From a virus (lineage: Duplodnaviria; Heunggongvirae; Uroviricota; Caudoviricetes), in the IMG/VR virus record IMGVR_UViG_3300029742_000283: DNA of 8,229 bases. One strand, written 5' to 3'. The position numbers and the translations under genes are program-made. This document shows positions 1 to 8,229 of this stretch, piece after piece. The stretch's first letter is position 1. Each line of letters begins with the position of its first letter. Under the pieces are notes generated by a model, which saw nothing but the letters and a program-made list of their open reading frames with translations, did no database searches and was not told where the DNA came from.

Positions 1-81
1 AAATACTCCCGCTATCAACTGACGCTAGTATAACGGAAGCAAATCATCTGCAATGCATTAAGCAGCAGGCAAATTGAGGAT

Positions 82-108
82 AAAAAAAACCCCCACATCA
101 TGTGGGGG
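82..108 (-). terminator. Intrinsic terminator-like hairpin, minus-strand orientation
   Basis: Seen in sequence: 8-bp GC-rich inverted repeat cccccaca (90-97) / tgtggggg (101-108) with a 3-nt loop, directly preceded on the plus strand by A8 (82-89), i.e. followed by U8 on a minus-strand transcript. Lies in the non-coding region beyond ogr. Confidence 0.5.
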
Positions 109-198
109 AAGACAGGGATGGTGTCACAAAAAAGCACCTAACCTGATGATATAAATGGATTTATATCAACCACTGTCCACATAGCGTCCACATCGACC

Positions 199-232
199 AT
201 AAATAAAGCCCCTCAACTGAGGGGCTATTTTT
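199..232. terminator. Bidirectional intrinsic terminator immediately downstream of ogr
   Basis: Seen in sequence: stem gcccctc (208-214) / gaggggc (219-225) with loop aact; plus strand then has T5 (228-232); minus strand has TTTATTTAT after the stem (207-199). The ogr stop codon (TGA, 237-239 on minus) is 12 nt upstream of the stem. Confidence 0.55.
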
Positions 233-236
233 GTGA

Positions 237-455
237 TCACATCCACATAATTTGCTGCCCTGACGGCAACGGGTGCGGCCTTACGGCGTGGACTTCTCCC
301 GGCTTCACGATGTATCGCTGTACCGACTCATAAGTGATGAACGTGGCACTGCAATTCACGTTCTGGCACTGATGATAACGCTCTTTTGTCGTGTCAGTGA
401 TATAGCGGCTTGTACGCGCATGTGCGGCATGCTGGCATAAAGGACAATGAAACAT
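237..455 (-). CDS. ogr: Ogr, zinc-finger late-gene transcriptional activator (72 aa)
   Basis: Translation MFHCPLCQHAAHARTSRYITDTTKERYHQCQNVNCSATFITYESVQRYIVKPGEVHAVRPHPLPSGQQIMWM matches my recollection of phage P2 Ogr, with a CxxC...CxxxxC zinc-binding motif. True start is the internal ATG at 455-453, preceded on the minus strand by AAGAGGTG (RBS, about 7 nt spacing); the 93-aa ORF-track version starting at 518 is an upstream in-frame extension that overlaps the promoter. Position after gene D matches P2 order. Confidence 0.9.
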   Translation of the reverse strand: MFHCPLCQHAAHARTSRYITDTTKERYHQCQNVNCSATFITYESVQRYIVKPGEVHAVRPHPLPSGQQIMWM

Positions 456-2193: not shown

Positions 2194-4641
2194 TTAACCG
2201 TCATGCATCATGCTGGCACGGGCGCGCGCACGTTTATCCCGCTCGTATTTTTCGAGCGCATCCTGTAACTGGCGGTCAAGCTGTGTCCCCGGCGCAGTAC
2301 CGCCCGTCAGGTTGATGTGATATTCGTTTTTACTCTGGTCCACATAAGAGCGACCAGCCGGTGCCGTGACCGGCTGGTAAGCCTGATAGCCTGCATAAGA
2401 GCTGGTCGCCGGAATATAACCACCTGTGCCATACGTGGCGGCATGAGTTCTGGCGGCAGTCTGGTCAAGTGCGTCAGACTCTTTGTTGATGACGCCGAGT
2501 TTTTCCAGTACCCAGTCAATACCGCTGCGCAGTTTGTTGAACGCATTAAGCGGCAGCATCAGCGCGTCAGCCAGTGCCTGCCCGAACATGACGCCAGTAT
2601 CACGGCAACGGTTCAGGGTGTCCTGGGTGGCTTTGACCGGGGCAATCAGGTTTTTAAACCACTGCCACGCGGCCTGTAACTTTTCGCCCAGCCAGTCAAA
2701 CACCGGCTTCAGTGGCGTGAACAGTTCTCCCACCGGCGCAAATGCCGCTTTCAGCCCTTCCACCACACCGCCAAAGAATGCGCTGACAGGCTCCCAGTAT
2801 TTACGGATAAGCAACGCCCCGGCGACAATGGCGGCCACCACAGCCACAACCGGCCAGCTAATCGCCCCGATGGCCGTCATAACAGCACTGCCAACCGTCG
2901 TGAAGATTGCCCCCATTGCGCCTGCTGCCGCGATGATGGCATTGATGCCAGTGATAACCGGCCAGGCTACGAGGCCAATGGCACCGATGACAGCAGTCAG
3001 CGCCAGTGCGCCACCGGCAATGAGGCCGATGGTTGACGCCAGTGATTTGTTTTTCTGGATCCAGCCATCGAGTTTTAACACATACTTTGTGGCCGTCTGT
3101 GTGAGATTACGCAGTGCGCCTTCCTGCTGGTCAAACAGGTCAGTCCCCACCGCCTCATAAGCGGACTGAAACTCCTTAAAGTCACCGCCGAGGTTATCCT
3201 GCATGATTTTAACCAGCTCTTCCGTTTTACCGTCCGAGGCTTTCAGCGTGGCGGTCAGCTTATCCAGTTTTCCGCTTGCTGCCGCTGCCAGTAAAACGTT
3301 CGCTGATTTCAGGGCTTCCTCACCAAAAATGGTTTTAAGGTATTCCCCCTTCTGAGACGTTCCCAGCTTGTGTTTATCAAAGCTGGCCTGAATCTCTTTC
3401 AGAATGGTGAACAACGGACGCATATTTCCCTTTTTGTCCGAGGTTTTAACGCCAAGCTCTTTGAGTGCATCCCATGCTTTTCCAGTCGGTGCCTGTAATC
3501 GGGTGACAACGGCACTGCTACCCGTACCCGCCATTGACCCCCTGATGTTATTGTCATGCAGCACACCTGTCATGGCCGCTGCCTGCTCAAGACTTACACC
3601 TGCCGTCCTCGCAACCGGCCCGAGGTAAGTCAGTGCATCACTGAGCCCCTGAAAATCAGCCGCCGACTTATTCATCGTTGCCGACAACACGTCGCCCACA
3701 TGGCTGACATCATCATTTGACAGTTGAAAGGATGCCTTAGTCCCCAGCAACAGTTGCGCGTTTTCTTCCATCGACCGCTGATTCGCCAGTGCCATATTCA
3801 GCGTGACCGGCGTTGCCGCCTGAATAGCCGCAGCATCTCCACCCGCTTTCGCAATGATAATCTGCGCACCGGCCGCATCATCCGCCGAGGCGGCGGTATT
3901 ATCGCCGAGCTGGCGCGCCTGCTTGCGGAGCGCGGCCATTTCGGCGGAGTCTTTTGCCACTCCGAGCACGGCCTGCAATTCTGAGTTTTTCTGCGCAAAC
4001 TCATAACCGGGCATCAGCAACTTAACTCCGGCCATCGTTCCCGCCGCCGCAATCCCCACACCGGCAGCGCCCACTGAGGCCATATTTCCGGCCAGTTCCT
4101 TTCCTGCCTGATAACGCTGTTTGACTGCGTTAAGTTTTGCCTGTTGTGCACTGACACGCGCCAGCGCGTCACGCTGACGATTAAGCTGTGCGGTGGTTTC
4201 ACTGATACGGTTTTTCAGCCCCTGCTCATCATGTGCAAGATTGCGGGTATTAATTCCCACAGCGGCCAGTTCCCGCTGCTGGCGTTTAACGGAATCCGTC
4301 AGGCGGTTATATTTCGCCTGTAAGTCCTCCGCCGCACGCTTTGCGGATTCCAGCACTTTCGCCTGAGCACGGGTCGGTCGTTCGGTGTTTTTAAACTGTG
4401 TGGCAAGGGCTTCGGCCTCCTGCCGTGCCTTTTCAAGTGCATGACCAGTCACGGCGAGCTGTGCACTGGTCTTGCGAAATCCCTCAATACGGGATGCCTG
4501 ACCGTTCAGCTCGCGCAGTGATTTTTGTGTTTCCCGGATATCCCCCGACAGCGTCTTGCTCGCTGTACGGATGGATTTAAACGGGCGGGATGCCTGGTCA
4601 ACAGCCCTGAGCAATACCTGTAATTTTACATTGTTACTCAT
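2194..4641 (-). CDS. T: Tail tape measure protein (gpT), 815 aa
   Basis: 815-aa ORF, same length as P2 gpT. N-terminal half is rich in predicted coiled coil (Q/A/R/E/K-rich); it has a long hydrophobic Ala/Gly/Ile-rich segment typical of tape measure proteins. The start overlaps the end of the E' frameshift product. Confidence 0.9.
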   Translation of the reverse strand: MSNNVKLQVLLRAVDQASRPFKSIRTASKTLSGDIRETQKSLRELNGQASRIEGFRKTSAQLAVTGHALEKARQEAEALATQFKNTERPTRAQAKVLESAKRAAEDLQAKYNRLTDSVKRQQRELAAVGINTRNLAHDEQGLKNRISETTAQLNRQRDALARVSAQQAKLNAVKQRYQAGKELAGNMASVGAAGVGIAAAGTMAGVKLLMPGYEFAQKNSELQAVLGVAKDSAEMAALRKQARQLGDNTAASADDAAGAQIIIAKAGGDAAAIQAATPVTLNMALANQRSMEENAQLLLGTKASFQLSNDDVSHVGDVLSATMNKSAADFQGLSDALTYLGPVARTAGVSLEQAAAMTGVLHDNNIRGSMAGTGSSAVVTRLQAPTGKAWDALKELGVKTSDKKGNMRPLFTILKEIQASFDKHKLGTSQKGEYLKTIFGEEALKSANVLLAAAASGKLDKLTATLKASDGKTEELVKIMQDNLGGDFKEFQSAYEAVGTDLFDQQEGALRNLTQTATKYVLKLDGWIQKNKSLASTIGLIAGGALALTAVIGAIGLVAWPVITGINAIIAAAGAMGAIFTTVGSAVMTAIGAISWPVVAVVAAIVAGALLIRKYWEPVSAFFGGVVEGLKAAFAPVGELFTPLKPVFDWLGEKLQAAWQWFKNLIAPVKATQDTLNRCRDTGVMFGQALADALMLPLNAFNKLRSGIDWVLEKLGVINKESDALDQTAARTHAATYGTGGYIPATSSYAGYQAYQPVTAPAGRSYVDQSKNEYHINLTGGTAPGTQLDRQLQDALEKYERDKRARARASMMHDG

Positions 4642-5061
4642 TCGTGTTTCCGCTTCGCCGGAGCGCCTTTTCGCGCCATGTGATGAGTTCGGTCAGGCTC
4701 ATGGGATACAGTTCTGATGGCGGCCAGTGAAATATCACTGCCACATCCGCCATCAGGTCATCGACCGAGAGATTTTTCGGAAACGTTATTGCACCGAGTT
4801 CGGAGACAAAAAACCGACCACCTTACCGGCCAGCGCCACAAGGTCAGGCAGTTCCAGTGCGGCGACTTCCTGCTCGGTCAGCATCGGTGCAGTCATGCGC
4901 GGCAGCACCTTAATCAGTGCATCGACTTCGGAGTTCGCGACCGCAGCCAGACTGACACCGCGCAGCGTCCCGGCATTGGGTTTCATCAGCGTGACCTGTT
5001 CGATGACCTGCTCACCACGCTTGACCGGATTGTCCAGGGTAATCACATTTTCTTTGTTCAT
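4634..5061 (-). CDS. E': Tail assembly chaperone gpE+E' made by programmed -1 ribosomal frameshift (142 aa)
   Basis: I translated the -1 frame downstream of the slippery heptamer by hand: ...VGFL then VSELGAITFPKNLSVDDLMADVAVIFHWPPSELYPMSLTELITWREKALRRSGNTNE, stop TAA at 4636-4634. That is 85 aa + 57 aa = 142 aa, the size I recall for P2 gpE+E'. The E' stop overlaps the T start (4641). Confidence 0.75.
4786..5061 (-). CDS. E: Tail assembly chaperone gpE (91 aa, zero-frame product)
   Basis: 91-aa ORF matching my recollection of P2 gpE, immediately upstream of T. Contains the slippery site near its 3' end. Confidence 0.85.
   Translation of the reverse strand: MNKENVITLDNPVKRGEQVIEQVTLMKPNAGTLRGVSLAAVANSEVDALIKVLPRMTAPMLTEQEVAALELPDLVALAGKVVGFLSPNSVQ
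4807..4813 (-). other. -1 frameshift slippery heptamer T_TTT_TTG
   Basis: Seen in sequence: minus-strand GGT TTT TTG in the E frame (plus-strand caaaaaac at 4807-4814). Heptamer of X_XXY_YYZ type, positioned so the -1 frame stays open to just past the T start. Confidence 0.7.
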
Positions 5062-5089
5062 GGTTTTCTCACTTCTGAATCAGGGTTAA

Positions 5090-5110
5090 CCGGTCAGCCT
5101 GGCTGACCGG
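5090..5110 (-). other. Stem-loop in the FII-E intergenic region
   Basis: Seen in sequence: ccggtcag (5090-5097) / ctgaccgg (5103-5110), 8-bp perfect stem with a 5-nt loop, between the FII stop (5118) and the E start (5061). No strong U-tract follows on the minus strand. Confidence 0.45.
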
Positions 5111-5117
5111 ATGAAAA

Positions 5118-5636
5118 TCACAGGCCGATATTGCGGCGGTGTTGCTCCAGCCGGTCGACGCCGTTCACCTTCTCAATCATGTTGATGGTGTCAATTTCGA
5201 CCAGCTCCTTACCGTCCATCGTCAGCCGGAAATAGGTACAGACCACGGAGATTTTCGACTCGGTGTCTTCTCCCTGTTTACCCTCGCCGGTGTCGATTTC
5301 TTTCTGACGGCCACGCATGACCACTTCGACGGCCACCGTTTCGCCGGTATCGTCACGCTGGTAAGAGCCAGCAAAACGAATCGGCACGGCATCCACACCG
5401 GTTGCGGCGTAAAGCTCCCAGATAACCGAATCCGGGAAGCCCCCGAGCGACCACTCCATTGACAGCGCATCGTCATCAAGGCCGAGGTCTACCGGTGCGC
5501 TGCCGTTCATCCCCGCACCGCGATAGTTTTCGAGCTTACGGGTCAGTTTTGGCAGCGTGACGGACTTTGCAACGCCCTGATAGCTGTAGCCGTTCAGAAA
5601 GACGTTCATTAACTTGAGTTTGCGCGGCATTGCCAT
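5118..5636 (-). CDS. FII: Tail tube protein (gpFII), 172 aa
   Basis: 172-aa ORF matching my recollection of P2 gpFII in length and sequence; RBS AAGGAG 8 nt upstream of the ATG at 5636; directly downstream of the sheath gene. Confidence 0.9.
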   Translation of the reverse strand: MAMPRKLKLMNVFLNGYSYQGVAKSVTLPKLTRKLENYRGAGMNGSAPVDLGLDDDALSMEWSLGGFPDSVIWELYAATGVDAVPIRFAGSYQRDDTGETVAVEVVMRGRQKEIDTGEGKQGEDTESKISVVCTYFRLTMDGKELVEIDTINMIEKVNGVDRLEQHRRNIGL

Positions 5637-6839: not shown

Positions 6840-6864
6840 CCGTTTAACTCCGTGGTTAATGGGT

Positions 6865-6930
6865 GCAACTATTTTCTGTTGTGCAGAGCATGAGACGCTA
6901 TTTGACCTGGCTGGTCAGTGGATGAAACAA
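6865..6930 (-). promoter_or_regulatory. Candidate Ogr-dependent late promoter for the FI operon (P_F equivalent)
   Basis: Inference from P2 architecture, where a late promoter precedes FI. Seen in sequence: imperfect dyad tgg-N12-aca (6912-6929) resembling the TGT-N12-ACA element of P2 late promoters, with an A/T-rich -10-like hexamer (minus AGAAAATA, about 6870-6877) downstream. Match is imperfect. Confidence 0.3.
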
Positions 6931-6935
6931 CAGAT

Positions 6936-6961
6936 AAAAAAGGCGGGCAATCAGCCCGCCT
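6936..6961 (-). terminator. Intrinsic terminator downstream of the tail fiber / tfa transcription unit
   Basis: Seen in sequence: stem aggcgggc (6941-6948) / gcccgcct (6954-6961), loop aatca; on the minus strand the stem is followed by TTTTT (6940-6936). Lies between tfa and FI, where P2 separates the V-G and FI-D late operons. Confidence 0.6.
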
Positions 6962-7159
6962 GCGGTATTTCCGACCATTCAGGATTTGCAGGATCCACAC
7001 GACCAGAAAGACAGCTACTGATTAATCAGGCCAATAAACACATGAACACTAAGCAATAGCCCGGCAGGTCTGAGGTACTGGCGCAATATAATTTGTGGCT
7101 GGATTACCTGTACGCACCGGAGCGGTCCGATACTTCCGGTACGTCAGATATTGAATGGT

Positions 7160-7570
7160 CTACGCCTCCGGCAGTTCAGGCCAGATGACATCCGGTGCGG
7201 TGCTGGTATCTGTTGCCGTCACAGCGTCGATATAATCCAGCACAACGTTAAGTCGGGTAGTTTCCTCTTGCGTCAGTTTGCGCCCGGCCTGCAGCTTTAA
7301 CTGAATCACGCTGATATTGGCCATTGCTGCGTCTAACAGCGACTGTTTTTTCTGTTCAGCGTCAGCTACCAGTTCATCATGAGAACGTTCCTGAGTGGGT
7401 GGTGCAGTAAATCCCCCTTCTGAATACCCCCAGCCGATTCCGGGCTGCTCACTGATATCAGAAATATTAATGAGCTGCTGATTATCCGGCACTGTGAATT
7501 CAGCCTCGCCATCCCAGACAATGACATTCACAACCATCCCATTTTCAATAACTGCATATGACGTATTCAT
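7160..7570 (-). CDS. Tail fiber assembly protein (Tfa-family chaperone), about 136 aa
   Basis: C-terminal motif ...DAVTATDTSTAPDVIWPELPEA resembles the conserved C-terminus of lambda/P2-type Tfa proteins. Preferred start is the ATG at 7570-7568, which overlaps the tail-fiber stop as TAATG and has GAGGAG 8 nt upstream; the ORF-track start at 7594 (MYYRGVCIM...) is a less likely upstream extension. Shorter than the 175 aa I recall for P2 gpG, so likely a different Tfa subtype. Confidence 0.75.
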   Translation of the reverse strand: MNTSYAVIENGMVVNVIVWDGEAEFTVPDNQQLINISDISEQPGIGWGYSEGGFTAPPTQERSHDELVADAEQKKQSLLDAAMANISVIQLKLQAGRKLTQEETTRLNVVLDYIDAVTATDTSTAPDVIWPELPEA

Positions 7571-8229
7571 TATGCAAACTCCTCGATAATACAAATCCCT
7601 GAAGCGCCTTTCCCGCCCGTCATACTGGTTCCGCTATAACCGGCATCGTATGCGCCACCTCCGCCTGAACCATATGCTTTACCGATAACACCACCGCCAG
7701 CGCCTGCACGTCCACCGCCGCCCCAGTGCGATGTTCCGCCTTCACCGCTGACGCTGATATTTCCGGACTGACCGTCGCCTCCATCTCCACCAGTGATGCG
7801 GATATCGCCAGTACTCGGCACACCTCCGTTACCGCCGTTTGTGTTTGTAACACCCGCTTTCCCGCCACCTTCGCCACCAGGAGCAATTAACGATGCGAAT
7901 ACGCTATTCCCGCCCCTGGTGCCGTTCGTCGCACTAACACCACCGGCCCCACCTGCGCCGATAGTGACTGGATAACTATTCTGTGTCGGGGTCATTATTG
8001 AAATTATTGTTCCACCGGCCCCACCGCCAGCACCGAAAAACGTTTCATTATTGGATGCAGCCTTGCAGCCGCCCCCTCCGCCACCGCCGCCCGTTATTGT
8101 GACCCTGATCCGTTTTGTTCCTGGCGTCGGGGTGTATGTACCTGATGAGGTGAAAACCCGGGTATTCAGCCAGCGTCCAACGTATCCACTTGCATCGCTC
8201 AGACCAAGATATTGAATAACCGCCTGTGT
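7570..8229 (-). CDS. Tail fiber protein, C-terminal part (5'-truncated by the window edge), glycine-rich
   Basis: The frame is open from the window edge (8229) to the stop at 7572-7570; I translated 7996-8229 by hand and found no stop (…LNTRVFTSSGTYTPTPGTKRIRVTITGGGGGGGGCKAASNNETFFGAGGGAGGTIISIMTPTQNS…). Product is dominated by Gly-rich repeats and is immediately followed by a coupled tfa gene. Occupies the position of P2 gene H, but the C-terminal region does not look like what I recall of P2 gpH. Confidence 0.7.
   Translation of the reverse strand, partial: TQAVIQYLGLSDASGYVGRWLNTRVFTSSGTYTPTPGTKRIRVTITGGGGGGGGCKAASNNETFFGAGGGAGGTIISIMTPTQNSYPVTIGAGGAGGVSATNGTRGGNSVFASLIAPGGEGGGKAGVTNTNGGNGGVPSTGDIRITGGDGGDGQSGNISVSGEGGTSHWGGGGRAGAGGGVIGKAYGSGGGGAYDAGYSGTSMTGGKGASGICIIEEFA

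What the first reader, a model, noticed from the sequence alone, without database searches (positions are those of the whole stretch)
4634..5061. Programmed -1 frameshift produces gpE and gpE+E', with E' ending inside the tape-measure start
The slippery heptamer T_TTT_TTG (4813-4807, minus strand) sits 7 codons before the E stop. Hand translation of the -1 frame gives a 57-aa extension that ends at a TAA at 4636-4634, 2 codons past the T start codon, for 142 aa total. This is the conserved chaperone frameshift found upstream of tape-measure genes in long-tailed phages (analogous to lambda G/GT). Standard ORF callers will miss E', as the six-frame track did.
Basis: partly seen in the sequence, partly recalled or inferred. 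Interest (0 to 1): 0.45.

Follow-up and report, generated by a model that had tools for sequence, protein, structure and literature searches.

The report
Phage P2 tail-chaperone frameshift, already known
This is the well-characterised programmed -1 ribosomal frameshift that lets a P2-type prophage make two tail-assembly chaperones (gpE and gpE+E') from one start codon; it is real, correctly described and ordinary.

Summary
On the minus strand, gene E (5061-4786, 91 aa) contains T_TTT_TTG (4813-4807) in the X_XXY_YYZ register, 7 codons before its stop. The -1 frame then stays open for 57 codons to a TAA (4636-4634) that overlaps the tape-measure start (ATG 4641-4639). The conceptual 142-aa product is 139/142 identical to phage P2 gpE+E' (NP_046780 / UniProt O64312), which is curated as a -1 frameshift product. 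It carries Pfam Phage_TAC_7 in frame 0 and Phage_P2_GpE (E = 1.2e-21) in frame -1. The T6 heptamer, its register and the E'-stop/T-start overlap are kept in 80/80 IMG/VR loci and 80/80 Enterobacterales species genomes. The exact heptamer is kept in 14 of 17 sequences compared (window, P2 and 15 diverged Peduoviridae). No stimulatory structure lies within 45-67 nt downstream. Verdict: already known, low interest. One side lead: an anti-Shine-Dalgarno-complementary motif, AGGUG(G/A)UC (4823-4816), sits 2 nt before the heptamer. It is held at synonymous sites (Lys AAG 63:1 against AAA 180: AAG 71 elsewhere in the same genes). Its spacing is shorter than the 9-14 nt reported for -1 stimulators. 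Whether it tunes the shift is untested.

The parts
4786..5061 (-). Gene E, frame 0. A 91-aa tail assembly chaperone, gpE.
   Evidence: ORF and translation. Pfam PF10109 Phage_TAC_7, residues 7-85, E = 2.6e-12. PHROG 103 'tail protein', E = 3.4e-43. The exact sequence is named 'phage tail assembly protein' and was seen on 1000 contigs, the counting limit.
4807..4813 (-). Slippery heptamer T_TTT_TTG, spanning the last base of codon 83 (Gly 83) and codons 84-85 (Phe 84, Leu 85).
   Evidence: Sequence and register. Identical in P2 and pro483. TTTTTTG is kept in 80/80 IMG/VR loci. T_TTT_TTN in register is kept in 80/80 Enterobacterales genomes: 69 G, 9 A, 2 C. TTTTTTG is kept in 14 of 17 sequences compared (window, P2 and 15 diverged Peduoviridae). 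Codon -1 is GGT in all 76 distinct sequences that have Gly there (of 79).
4634..4807 (-). E' extension in the -1 frame: 57 codons plus TAA (4636-4634). G4807 is read twice. Residues 86-103 form a variable linker. Residues 104-139 match the GpE domain.
   Evidence: Translation. Pfam PF06528 Phage_P2_GpE, residues 104-139, E = 1.2e-21. PHROG 1756, E = 1.8e-28, covers 56 of the 57 residues. No start codon lies before the ATG at 4753. Against phage 186, 8 of 14 substitutions in the last 39 codons fall at third positions of this frame.
4634..5061 (-). Composite E+E' coding region (join 5061..4807, 4807..4634), 142 aa.
   Evidence: 139/142 identical to P2 gpE+E'. The P2 reconstruction equals NP_046780.1 / O64312 exactly. 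RefSeq P2 has a joined CDS of the same 428-nt span.
4634..4641 (-). ATGAGTAA junction. The start codon of tape-measure gene T (4641-4639) overlaps the E' stop (4636-4634).
   Evidence: The same geometry is annotated in P2. The overlap is kept in 79/79 evaluable genome loci: 8 nt in 60, 11 nt in 13, 14 nt in 5, 23 nt in 1.
2194..4641 (-). Gene T, the tail tape-measure protein (815 aa). It is the presumed client of the chaperones.
   Evidence: ORF. Pfam PF10145 PhageMin_Tail, E = 2.1e-44.
5118..5636 (-). Gene FII, the tail tube protein. It is the upstream neighbour that fixes the tube / chaperone / tape-measure gene order.
   Evidence: Pfam PF04985 Phage_tube, E = 2.3e-60.
4816..4823 (-). AGGUGGUC, complementary to the 16S rRNA 3' tail (GAUCACCU). 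It ends 2 nt before the heptamer. Candidate 5' modulator of the shift (inferred, untested).
   Evidence: Duplex with the anti-SD is -14.0 kcal/mol. It is the strongest anti-SD complement within -210..+190 nt, and 92% of 79 distinct relatives score -7 kcal/mol or better there. Synonymous entropy is lowest here among 38 conserved degenerate columns, apart from the heptamer-constrained Gly GGT codon at position -1: AAG 63:1 and GTG 73:4. In 10 of 12 sequences compared (the window and 11 diverged Peduoviridae) the 16 nt upstream of the heptamer falls in the top 2.5% of 16-nt windows within +/-600 nt.

Best explanation
The window carries the late tail operon of a P2-type (Peduovirus) prophage in the order FI-FII-E-T-U-D-ogr.

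Proposed mechanism:
- Most ribosomes translating E stop at TAA 4788-4786 and make the 91-aa chaperone gpE.
- A minority slip back one base when tRNA-Phe and tRNA-Leu occupy UUU UUG of U_UUU_UUG (4813-4807).
- These ribosomes re-read G4807 and continue for 57 codons in the -1 frame.
- They terminate at TAA 4636-4634, inside the first codons of tape-measure gene T. The product is the 142-aa gpE+E'.

The two proteins share the TAC domain, which by analogy with lambda G/GT binds the tape measure. Only the long form carries the GpE domain, which by the same analogy recruits the tube protein. The slip therefore fixes a many-to-few ratio of the two chaperones.

What is shown here: the anatomy, the near-identity to P2 and the deep conservation.
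What is inferred: that slippage actually occurs in this prophage, and the division of labour between the two domains.
What rests on my memory of Christie et al. 2002, which I could not read here: about 10% efficiency and the essentiality of E' in P2.
For: - Anatomy is exact.
- DNA is 98% identical to P2-type phages. The heptamer and the whole E' region 3' of position 4786 are identical to P2.
- The product is 139/142 identical to curated P2 gpE+E'. The same slip model reproduces NP_046780.1 / O64312 exactly.
- Two Pfam domains lie in two frames, joined only by the slip. PHROGs agree.
- The gene order tube / E / tape measure is confirmed.
- Comparative evidence. T6 in register is kept in 80/80 IMG/VR loci (66 distinct sequences) and in 80/80 species genomes. 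TTTTTTG at the same site is kept in 14 of 17 sequences compared, with E identity down to about 39%. The rare codons GGT, TTT and TTG/TTA are fixed where GGC, TTC and CTG would encode the same protein.
- The -1 frame is open for 55-64 codons and carries the conserved MADIAVIFHW...WRE motif.
- Literature: P2 shifts at TTTTTTG to give the 91-aa E and the 142-aa E+E' (PMC3091744). The lambda G/GT model is described in PMC5009743.
Against: - No expression data exist for this particular prophage.
- The heptamer alone is at chance frequency in the window.
- No canonical 3' stimulator was found.
- The upstream SD-like element is closer than the 9-14 nt rule for -1 stimulators. The efficiency here therefore cannot be predicted from known rules.
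- The functional split (E binds T, E' binds FII) is by analogy with lambda only. There is no sequence similarity to lambda G/GT and no solved structure of a relative.
Confidence: 0.94

Rival explanations
1. Transcriptional slippage. RNA polymerase adds one U in the T6 run, and ordinary translation of the U7 mRNA gives a 142-aa product with Phe instead of Leu at position 85 (..VVGFFVSELG..).
For: A homopolymeric T6 run is present. It is invariant in length across relatives, while the seventh base varies G/A/C. A run-length mechanism would also predict this.
Against: The review states that bacterial transcriptional slippage operates on runs of about 9 A or T (PMC5009743); T6 is short. The curated P2 product has Leu85-Val86, which is the ribosomal tandem-slip model. 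The run is always in the X_XXY_YYZ register. Register conservation is partly confounded by the conserved G-F-L residues.
Confidence: 0.03
2. E' is an independent small gene. A 39-aa protein starts at ATG 4753, as PGAP annotates it, and there is no fusion to E.
For: PGAP and many phage records annotate a stand-alone 30-51-aa 'GpE family' CDS. That 39-aa sequence is on record on 997 contigs.
Against: - The -1 frame is open from the heptamer itself in every relative, well upstream of that ATG.
- PHROG 1756 matches 56 of the 57 extension residues, including the linker.
- The Met is not conserved: Val in KP12, Ala in RSY1, Ile in Alfacinha1.
- No anti-SD complementarity precedes 4753.
- The synonymous fixation of GGT TTT TTG would be unexplained.
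- From memory of Christie et al. 2002: P2 fusion-protein and complementation data.
Confidence: 0.02
3. Relic. The arrangement is inherited from P2, but this prophage is defective and the site is no longer used.
For: The window's tail-fibre end (6840-8229) is poorly matched in phage records. The closest E. coli genome has truncated fibre-assembly genes at the corresponding place.
Against: FI, FII, E, E', T, U, D and ogr are all intact, full-length and in P2 order. The only E/E' changes relative to P2 are conservative.
Confidence: 0.01

Closest known systems
Bacteriophage P2 genes E and E+E' (NC_001895 19430-19857; NP_046781 / NP_046780; UniProt O64312 TAPFS_BPP2)
   Same: Same heptamer, same register and same 428-nt span. 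Same 8-nt overlap with T. Same 91-aa and 142-aa product lengths. 139/142 residues are identical, and the flanking genes FII and T are the same.
   Different: Three substitutions: N29S, S87A, I92V. The E stop is TAA rather than TGA. The first codon after the heptamer is TCT rather than TCG, which removes one pair of a small 5-bp hairpin predicted in P2. None of these touches the heptamer or the GpE domain.
Phage 186 orf51/orf52 and PSP3 gp23/gp23.5 (Eganvirus)
   Same: TTTTTTG at the homologous codon, a 57-codon -1 extension and an 8-nt overlap with the tape-measure start. Both are annotated as a probable or -1 frameshift.
   Different: E is 111 aa, with about 20 extra N-terminal residues in the aligned products. 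The aligned part is about 72% identical, and the linker residues differ.
Lambda G / GT tail assembly chaperones (Levin 1993; Xu 2004, 2013, 2014)
   Same: Two products share an N-terminus and are made by a low-level -1 shift near the end of the gene lying between the major tail/tube gene and the tape-measure gene. The model has many short forms and few long forms (PMC5009743).
   Different: The slippery sequence differs (G_GGA_AAG in lambda, from my own knowledge). There is no detectable sequence similarity: only PF10109 and PF06528 hit here. P2 has a contractile tail, so the partner is a tube protein inside a sheath.
E. coli dnaX -1 frameshift cassette (SD-like element, A_AAA_AAG, 3' stem-loop)
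   Same: A -1 tandem-slip heptamer preceded by a sequence complementary to the 16S 3' tail.
   Different: The spacing is 2 nt from the end of the duplex, or 7 nt from the G that would pair with C1535. That compares with 10 nt in dnaX and a stated 9-14 nt range. There is no 3' stem-loop. From memory, the expected efficiency is about 10%, not 50%.

Membership tests
P2-type gpE / gpE+E' tail assembly chaperone pair | N-terminal tail-assembly-chaperone domain (Pfam PF10109 Phage_TAC_7) in frame 0 | tested here: met
   Residues 7-85, 47 bits against a cut-off of 25, E = 2.6e-12.
P2-type gpE / gpE+E' tail assembly chaperone pair | GpE domain (Pfam PF06528) encoded in the -1 frame downstream, with no initiation site at the start of that open frame | tested here: met
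   Residues 104-139 of the fusion, 76 bits against a cut-off of 23, E = 1.2e-21. The first ATG/GTG/TTG in that frame is at 4753, 18 codons after the heptamer.
P2-type gpE / gpE+E' tail assembly chaperone pair | T_TTT_TTG slippery heptamer in X_XXY_YYZ register a few codons before the E stop | tested here: met
   Located at 4813-4807, with 6 sense codons before the TAA.
P2-type gpE / gpE+E' tail assembly chaperone pair | Located between the tail tube gene (FII) and the tape-measure gene (T), with the E' stop overlapping the T start | tested here: met
   Pfam assignments of the neighbours. ATGAGTAA junction. The layout is the same in P2 and in 79/79 evaluable genome loci.
P2-type gpE / gpE+E' tail assembly chaperone pair | Sequence identity to the experimentally studied P2 product | tested here: met
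   139/142 identical. The reference sequence was verified as NP_046780.1 / O64312.
P2-type gpE / gpE+E' tail assembly chaperone pair | The 142-aa fusion is actually produced, and E' is required for tail assembly | not testable with these tools
   This needs a reporter assay, mass spectrometry or genetics. From memory it is known for P2 itself (Christie et al. 2002), but that paper could not be read here.
Conserved tail-assembly-chaperone frameshift of long-tailed phages (lambda G/GT type, Xu et al. 2004) | Two overlapping ORFs between the major tail/tube gene and the tape-measure gene, joined by a -1 slippery site near the end of the first | tested here: met
Conserved tail-assembly-chaperone frameshift of long-tailed phages (lambda G/GT type, Xu et al. 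2004) | Homology to lambda gpG / gpGT themselves | tested here: not met
   Only PF10109 and PF06528 are hit at E <= 0.01. The relationship is therefore functional analogy and synteny, not demonstrable sequence homology.
dnaX-type SD-stimulated -1 frameshift cassette | Upstream sequence complementary to the 16S rRNA 3' end | tested here: met
   AGGUGGUC at 4823-4816, -14.0 kcal/mol. It is conserved at synonymous sites and gives a positional peak in the anti-SD profile.
dnaX-type SD-stimulated -1 frameshift cassette | SD-to-shift-site spacing of 9-14 nt | tested here: not met
   The spacing here is 2 nt from the end of the duplex, or 7 nt from the G aligned with C1535. The rule is taken from PMC5009743.
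dnaX-type SD-stimulated -1 frameshift cassette | Stable stem-loop or pseudoknot starting about 5-9 nt 3' of the heptamer | tested here: not met
   The 67 nt downstream fold at z = +0.92. The 45 nt downstream fold at z = +0.12 in the window, and at -1.8 to +1.5 in 13 relatives. The only strong hairpin starts 50 nt downstream and is not conserved beyond close relatives.
Transcriptional-slippage recoding site | Homopolymeric A/T run of about 9 or more | tested here: not met
   The run is T6. The length rule is from PMC5009743.

The most novel reading that the evidence does not exclude
The P2-family frameshift is not stimulator-free. It would use a 5' element, AGGUG(A/G)UC, that pairs with the 16S rRNA 3' tail only 2 nt upstream of U_UUU_UUG, equivalent to 7 nt in dnaX-aligned terms. 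That is outside the 9-14 nt window described for -1 stimulators. The element would set, by raising or by capping, the gpE : gpE+E' ratio.

- There is strong nucleotide-level selection on the motif. Lys is AAG 63:1 at this codon, against AAA 180 : AAG 71 elsewhere in the same genes. Val is GTG 73:4.
- It is the lowest synonymous entropy among 38 conserved degenerate columns, apart from the heptamer-constrained Gly GGT codon at position -1.
- It recurs in diverged Peduoviridae under different amino acids.
- A competing upstream hairpin is not supported.

I could not establish whether this element has already been described.
Probability: 0.35. Interest if true: 0.4.

Novelty: already known. Interest (0 to 1): 0.1.

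Why it matters
As a finding it adds little. The P2 E/E+E' frameshift was demonstrated in 2002, is curated in RefSeq and UniProt, and this prophage copy is nearly identical.

It has two practical values. First, it shows that automated bacterial annotation still splits the product into a 91-aa 'phage tail assembly protein' and an orphan 39-aa 'GpE family' CDS, so the true 142-aa protein is missing from protein databases for this allele. Second, the large set of natural variants gives a clean comparative picture of what the site needs. T6 is invariant, the seventh base can be G, A or C, there is no 3' structure, and a conserved anti-SD-complementary motif lies immediately 5'. If that motif modulates the shift at such short spacing, it would extend the known rules for rRNA-mRNA pairing in -1 frameshifting.

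Tried and rejected
- **Downstream stimulator.** Folding 67 nt (z = +0.92) and 45 nt after the heptamer gave nothing better than shuffles, in the window or in 13 relatives. The 141-nt fold is significant (z = -2.54) only because of a hairpin at 4756-4714, 50 nt away. That hairpin is kept in P2, 186, PSP3 and ENT4 without any informative variation and is lost in more distant relatives. Rejected as a conserved stimulator.
- **Upstream hairpin 4834-4813, ending at the first U of the heptamer.** It was picked up by the terminator scan at chance level and folds at -10.5 kcal/mol, z = -1.75. Three of its 8 pairs form in only 44-60% of 70 distinct relatives, with no compensatory changes, and the median z is -0.37. 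Rejected, also as an explanation for the conserved AAGGUG.
- **Rfam.** No family reached its gathering score anywhere in the window.
- **NCBIfam.** No hit for the fusion or for the extension.
- **PDB by sequence.** No relative with a solved structure.
- **Primary paper.** Christie et al. 2002 could not be retrieved by DOI or PMC id. Efficiency and essentiality are therefore quoted from memory only.
- **L004.** It looked like a divergent fused variant (78% identity). It is the same gene with two 1-nt deletions and keeps the heptamer.
- **Structure prediction.** Not run.
Full report
**1. Observation**

The minus strand of 4500-5200 was read directly.
- Gene E starts at ATG 5061 and ends at TAA 4788-4786, giving 91 aa.
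- TTTTTTG occupies 4813-4807. The codons read GGT(83) TTT(84) TTG(85), so the heptamer is in the tandem-slip register T_TTT_TTG.
- Six sense codons follow before the stop.
- Re-reading G4807 in the -1 frame gives 57 sense codons and a TAA at 4636-4634.
- The 815-aa tape-measure ORF starts at ATG 4641-4639. The junction is therefore ATGAGTAA, an 8-nt overlap. The fused product has 142 residues.
- Every number in the finding is correct.

The heptamer string alone is not significant: 2 occurrences in the window against 1.76 expected. The case rests on register, position, the open -1 frame and what that frame encodes.

**2. What it is**

The neighbours were identified with Pfam:
- tail sheath, 6839-5649;
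- tail tube FII, 5636-5118;
- tape measure T, 4641-2194;
- gpU, 2179-1700;
- gpD, 1700-537;
- Ogr, 455-237.

This is the P2 late tail operon in P2 order. The fusion carries Phage_TAC_7 at residues 7-85 in frame 0, and Phage_P2_GpE at residues 104-139 (E = 1.2e-21) in frame -1. PHROG 1756 matches 56 of the 57 extension residues.

The 701-nt region is 97.9-98.3% identical to the best-matching Peduovirus genomes. In a three-way alignment with P2 and pro483, the heptamer and everything 3' of position 4786 are identical.

RefSeq P2 annotates E (19430-19705), a two-piece E+E' CDS (19430-19857), a 'site of -1 translational frameshift', and T starting at 19850. This geometry is identical to the window. 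The window's product differs from P2's at N29S, S87A and I92V.

The P2 product I reconstructed under the same slip model (Leu85, then Val86 from the re-read G) is exactly NP_046780.1 / UniProt O64312, 'Tail assembly protein E''. An alternative join that gives Phe86 is not on record.

**3. Comparative support**

tblastn with the 85 pre-slip residues found 406 phage records. Nearly all alignments ended at residue 85, which is the slip site.

Seventeen sequences were compared: the window, P2 and 15 diverged phages with E identity of 73% down to 32%.
- Fourteen have TTTTTTG at the homologous codon.
- In those, the -1 frame is open for 55-64 codons and carries the conserved motif (D/E)D.MADIA.IFHW.P...L.EL..WRE.A..RSG.
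- Aeromonas phage 3 has TTTTTTC.
- Two Xuanwuvirus/Reipivirus phages lack the heptamer at that codon but keep a 69-70-codon -1 frame with the motif.
- A Mannheimia phage is annotated with a different slippery sequence.

Larger samples agree.
- All 80 IMG/VR loci (66 distinct sequences) keep TTTTTTG.
- In 80 species-representative Enterobacterales genomes, all have T_TTT_TTN in register: 69 G, 9 A, 2 C.
- In those genomes the extension runs 45-58 codons, median 57.
- The E' stop overlaps the T start in 79/79 evaluable loci.
- The Gly codon before the run is GGT in all 76 distinct sequences that have Gly there, of 79.
- Against phage 186, the last 39 codons of E' have 8 of 14 substitutions at third positions of the -1 frame.

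**4. Mechanism**

The best explanation is P2-type programmed -1 ribosomal frameshifting by tandem slippage on U_UUU_UUG. It yields a majority short chaperone and a minority long one.

The literature held here states the essentials for P2. The shift is at TTTTTTG, E is 91 aa and E+E' is 142 aa, and no downstream structure is present (PMC3091744). The lambda G/GT model, in which the common part binds the tape measure and the extension binds the tail shaft protein, is described in PMC5009743.

The roles of the two domains in P2-type phages are inferred by that analogy. The approximately 10% efficiency and the essentiality of E' are from my memory of Christie et al. 2002, which I could not open.

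**5. Stimulators**

Nothing significant folds within 45-67 nt downstream, in the window or in relatives.

A strong hairpin lies at 4756-4714 (-23.7 kcal/mol, z = -4.78). It is 50 nt away and is conserved only among close relatives, without informative variation. An upstream hairpin ending at the heptamer is not conserved.

What is conserved is a linear motif immediately 5': AAG GTG (G/A)TC.
- Among 38 amino-acid-conserved degenerate columns in the 75 codons before the slip site, these two codons have the lowest synonymous entropy after the heptamer's own GGT. The values are 0.12 and 0.34 bit; the next lowest is 0.56.
- Lys is AAG 63:1 here, while the same genes use AAA 180: AAG 71 elsewhere.
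- AGGUG(A/G)UC is complementary to the 16S 3' tail. The duplex is -14.0 kcal/mol in the window.
- A positional scan over 79 distinct relatives peaks here, with a mean of -11.2 kcal/mol. It is stronger than anywhere else within -210..+190 nt.
- In 10 of 12 sequences compared (the window and 11 diverged Peduoviridae) the 16 nt upstream of the heptamer rank in the top 2.5% of windows within +/-600 nt. Their amino acids differ: K-V, E-V, Q-V, A-V, V-V.

By the review's rule, SD stimulators act at 3 nt for +1 shifts and at 9-14 nt for -1 shifts. Here the spacing is 2 nt from the end of the duplex, or 7 nt when aligned on the G that would pair with C1535, against 10 nt for dnaX. So the element does not meet the dnaX-type definition, and its effect could go either way. 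This is a lead, not a result.

**6. Rivals**

- Transcriptional slippage is unlikely on a T6 run, and it predicts Phe85 rather than the curated Leu85.
- Independent initiation of a 39-aa E', as PGAP annotates it, does not explain several things. The frame is open from the heptamer. The linker matches PHROG 1756. The Met is not conserved. No SD-like signal precedes 4753. The heptamer is fixed at synonymous sites.
- A dead relic is unlikely because all operon genes are intact.

**7. Comparison and novelty**

The site is a member of the P2 gpE/gpE+E' family on every testable criterion. It works like lambda G/GT without demonstrable sequence homology. It resembles dnaX only in having an upstream rRNA-complementary motif. 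The finding is already known.

The only new element is an annotation gap. The window's exact 142-aa protein is absent from the protein collection, while its two fragments are each on about 1000 contigs.

**8. Verdict**

- Observation: confirmed.
- Interpretation: supported.
- Novelty: already known.
- Interest: 0.1.
- The most novel reading not excluded is a short-spacing rRNA-pairing modulator of the shift (probability about 0.35, interest about 0.4 if true).

Noticed in passing
window 4816-4824 (-): The motif AAGGUGGUC lies just 5' of the heptamer and is complementary to the 16S rRNA 3' tail. It is almost fixed at synonymous sites in 79 distinct relatives (AAG 63:1, GTG 73:4). It is the strongest anti-SD complement within about 200 nt either side. 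Its spacing is shorter than the 9-14 nt reported for -1 stimulators.
   Followed up: partly
window 4714-4756 (-): A very stable 43-nt hairpin (CUGAUGGCGG...CCGCCAUCAG, -23.7 kcal/mol, z = -4.78) lies inside the most conserved part of E' (LMADVAVIFHWPPSE), 50 nt after the heptamer. It is kept in P2, 186, PSP3 and ENT4 and is absent in more distant relatives. Its function, if any, is unknown.
   Followed up: partly
window 5090-5110 (-): A 9-bp GC-rich hairpin (CCGGUCAGC/GCUGACCGG) sits in the FII-E intergenic spacer with no U-tract after it (59-nt fold -19.4 kcal/mol, z = -3.31). Phage 186 annotates a 'partial terminator tI' at the equivalent place. It could set the ratio of tube/sheath transcripts to chaperone/tape-measure transcripts.
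   Followed up: no
window 195-455 (-): The ogr late-gene activator lies at 455-237 (Pfam Ogr_Delta). It is followed by a strong terminator hairpin at about 226-207 (46-nt fold -20.3 kcal/mol, z = -4.73). This matches P2's annotated terminator for ogr and the F operon.
   Followed up: partly
window 1-200: This is probably the prophage/host junction. In E. coli strain 146 the match begins directly next to fieF. Every one of 5426 complete E. coli genomes matches some part of the window. No complete E. coli genome exceeds about 97.6% identity over the whole window, so the source strain or species is not in that set.
   Followed up: no
window 6840-8229: The tail-fibre end is mosaic. Only 20% of it (7071-7345) matches any phage record, at 87% identity or less. 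ORFs 7594-7160 (Caudo_TAP fibre-assembly domain) and 7995-7570 (glycine-rich domain) overlap by 25 nt. The closest E. coli genome has truncated fibre-assembly pseudogenes in the corresponding region.
   Followed up: no
L096 (Citrobacter phage Shae_phiSM) and L099 (Klebsiella phage Kp4851-1), about 950-1170: These E homologues lack TTTTTTG at the homologous codon (TTTTATG and TTTCTTG). They still have a 69-70-codon open -1 frame with the GpE motif. The slip site must lie elsewhere or be of another type. Mannheimia phage 2256AP1 (L097) is annotated with an AGGGAAAG slippery sequence.
   Followed up: no
L089 (Ralstonia phage RSY1) 649-1119: The deposited 'ORF30' is a 156-codon ORF called in the E' frame from a TTG start. 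It is an artefact of a long open frame in a GC-rich genome. The real E is in the other frame, and TTTTTTG is present at 946-952.
   Followed up: partly
L155, L159-L161, L165, L166, L170, L171, L174 (TTTTTTA); L151, L157 (TTTTTTC): Natural variants of the seventh base of the heptamer occur in Rahnella, Ewingella, Serratia and Edwardsiella prophages. T never occurs there. This is a ready-made series for testing A-site codon effects on the shift.
   Followed up: no
L004 1501-1923: An IMG/VR contig has two single-base deletions inside E. It is either a draft-sequence error or a decaying prophage. The heptamer and E' are retained.
   Followed up: partly
L002 686 (NC_001895 position 19685): RefSeq's 'site of -1 translational frameshift' point feature falls on the T after the heptamer's G. 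The deposited protein corresponds to re-reading the G at 19684. This is a one-base annotation offset.
   Followed up: partly
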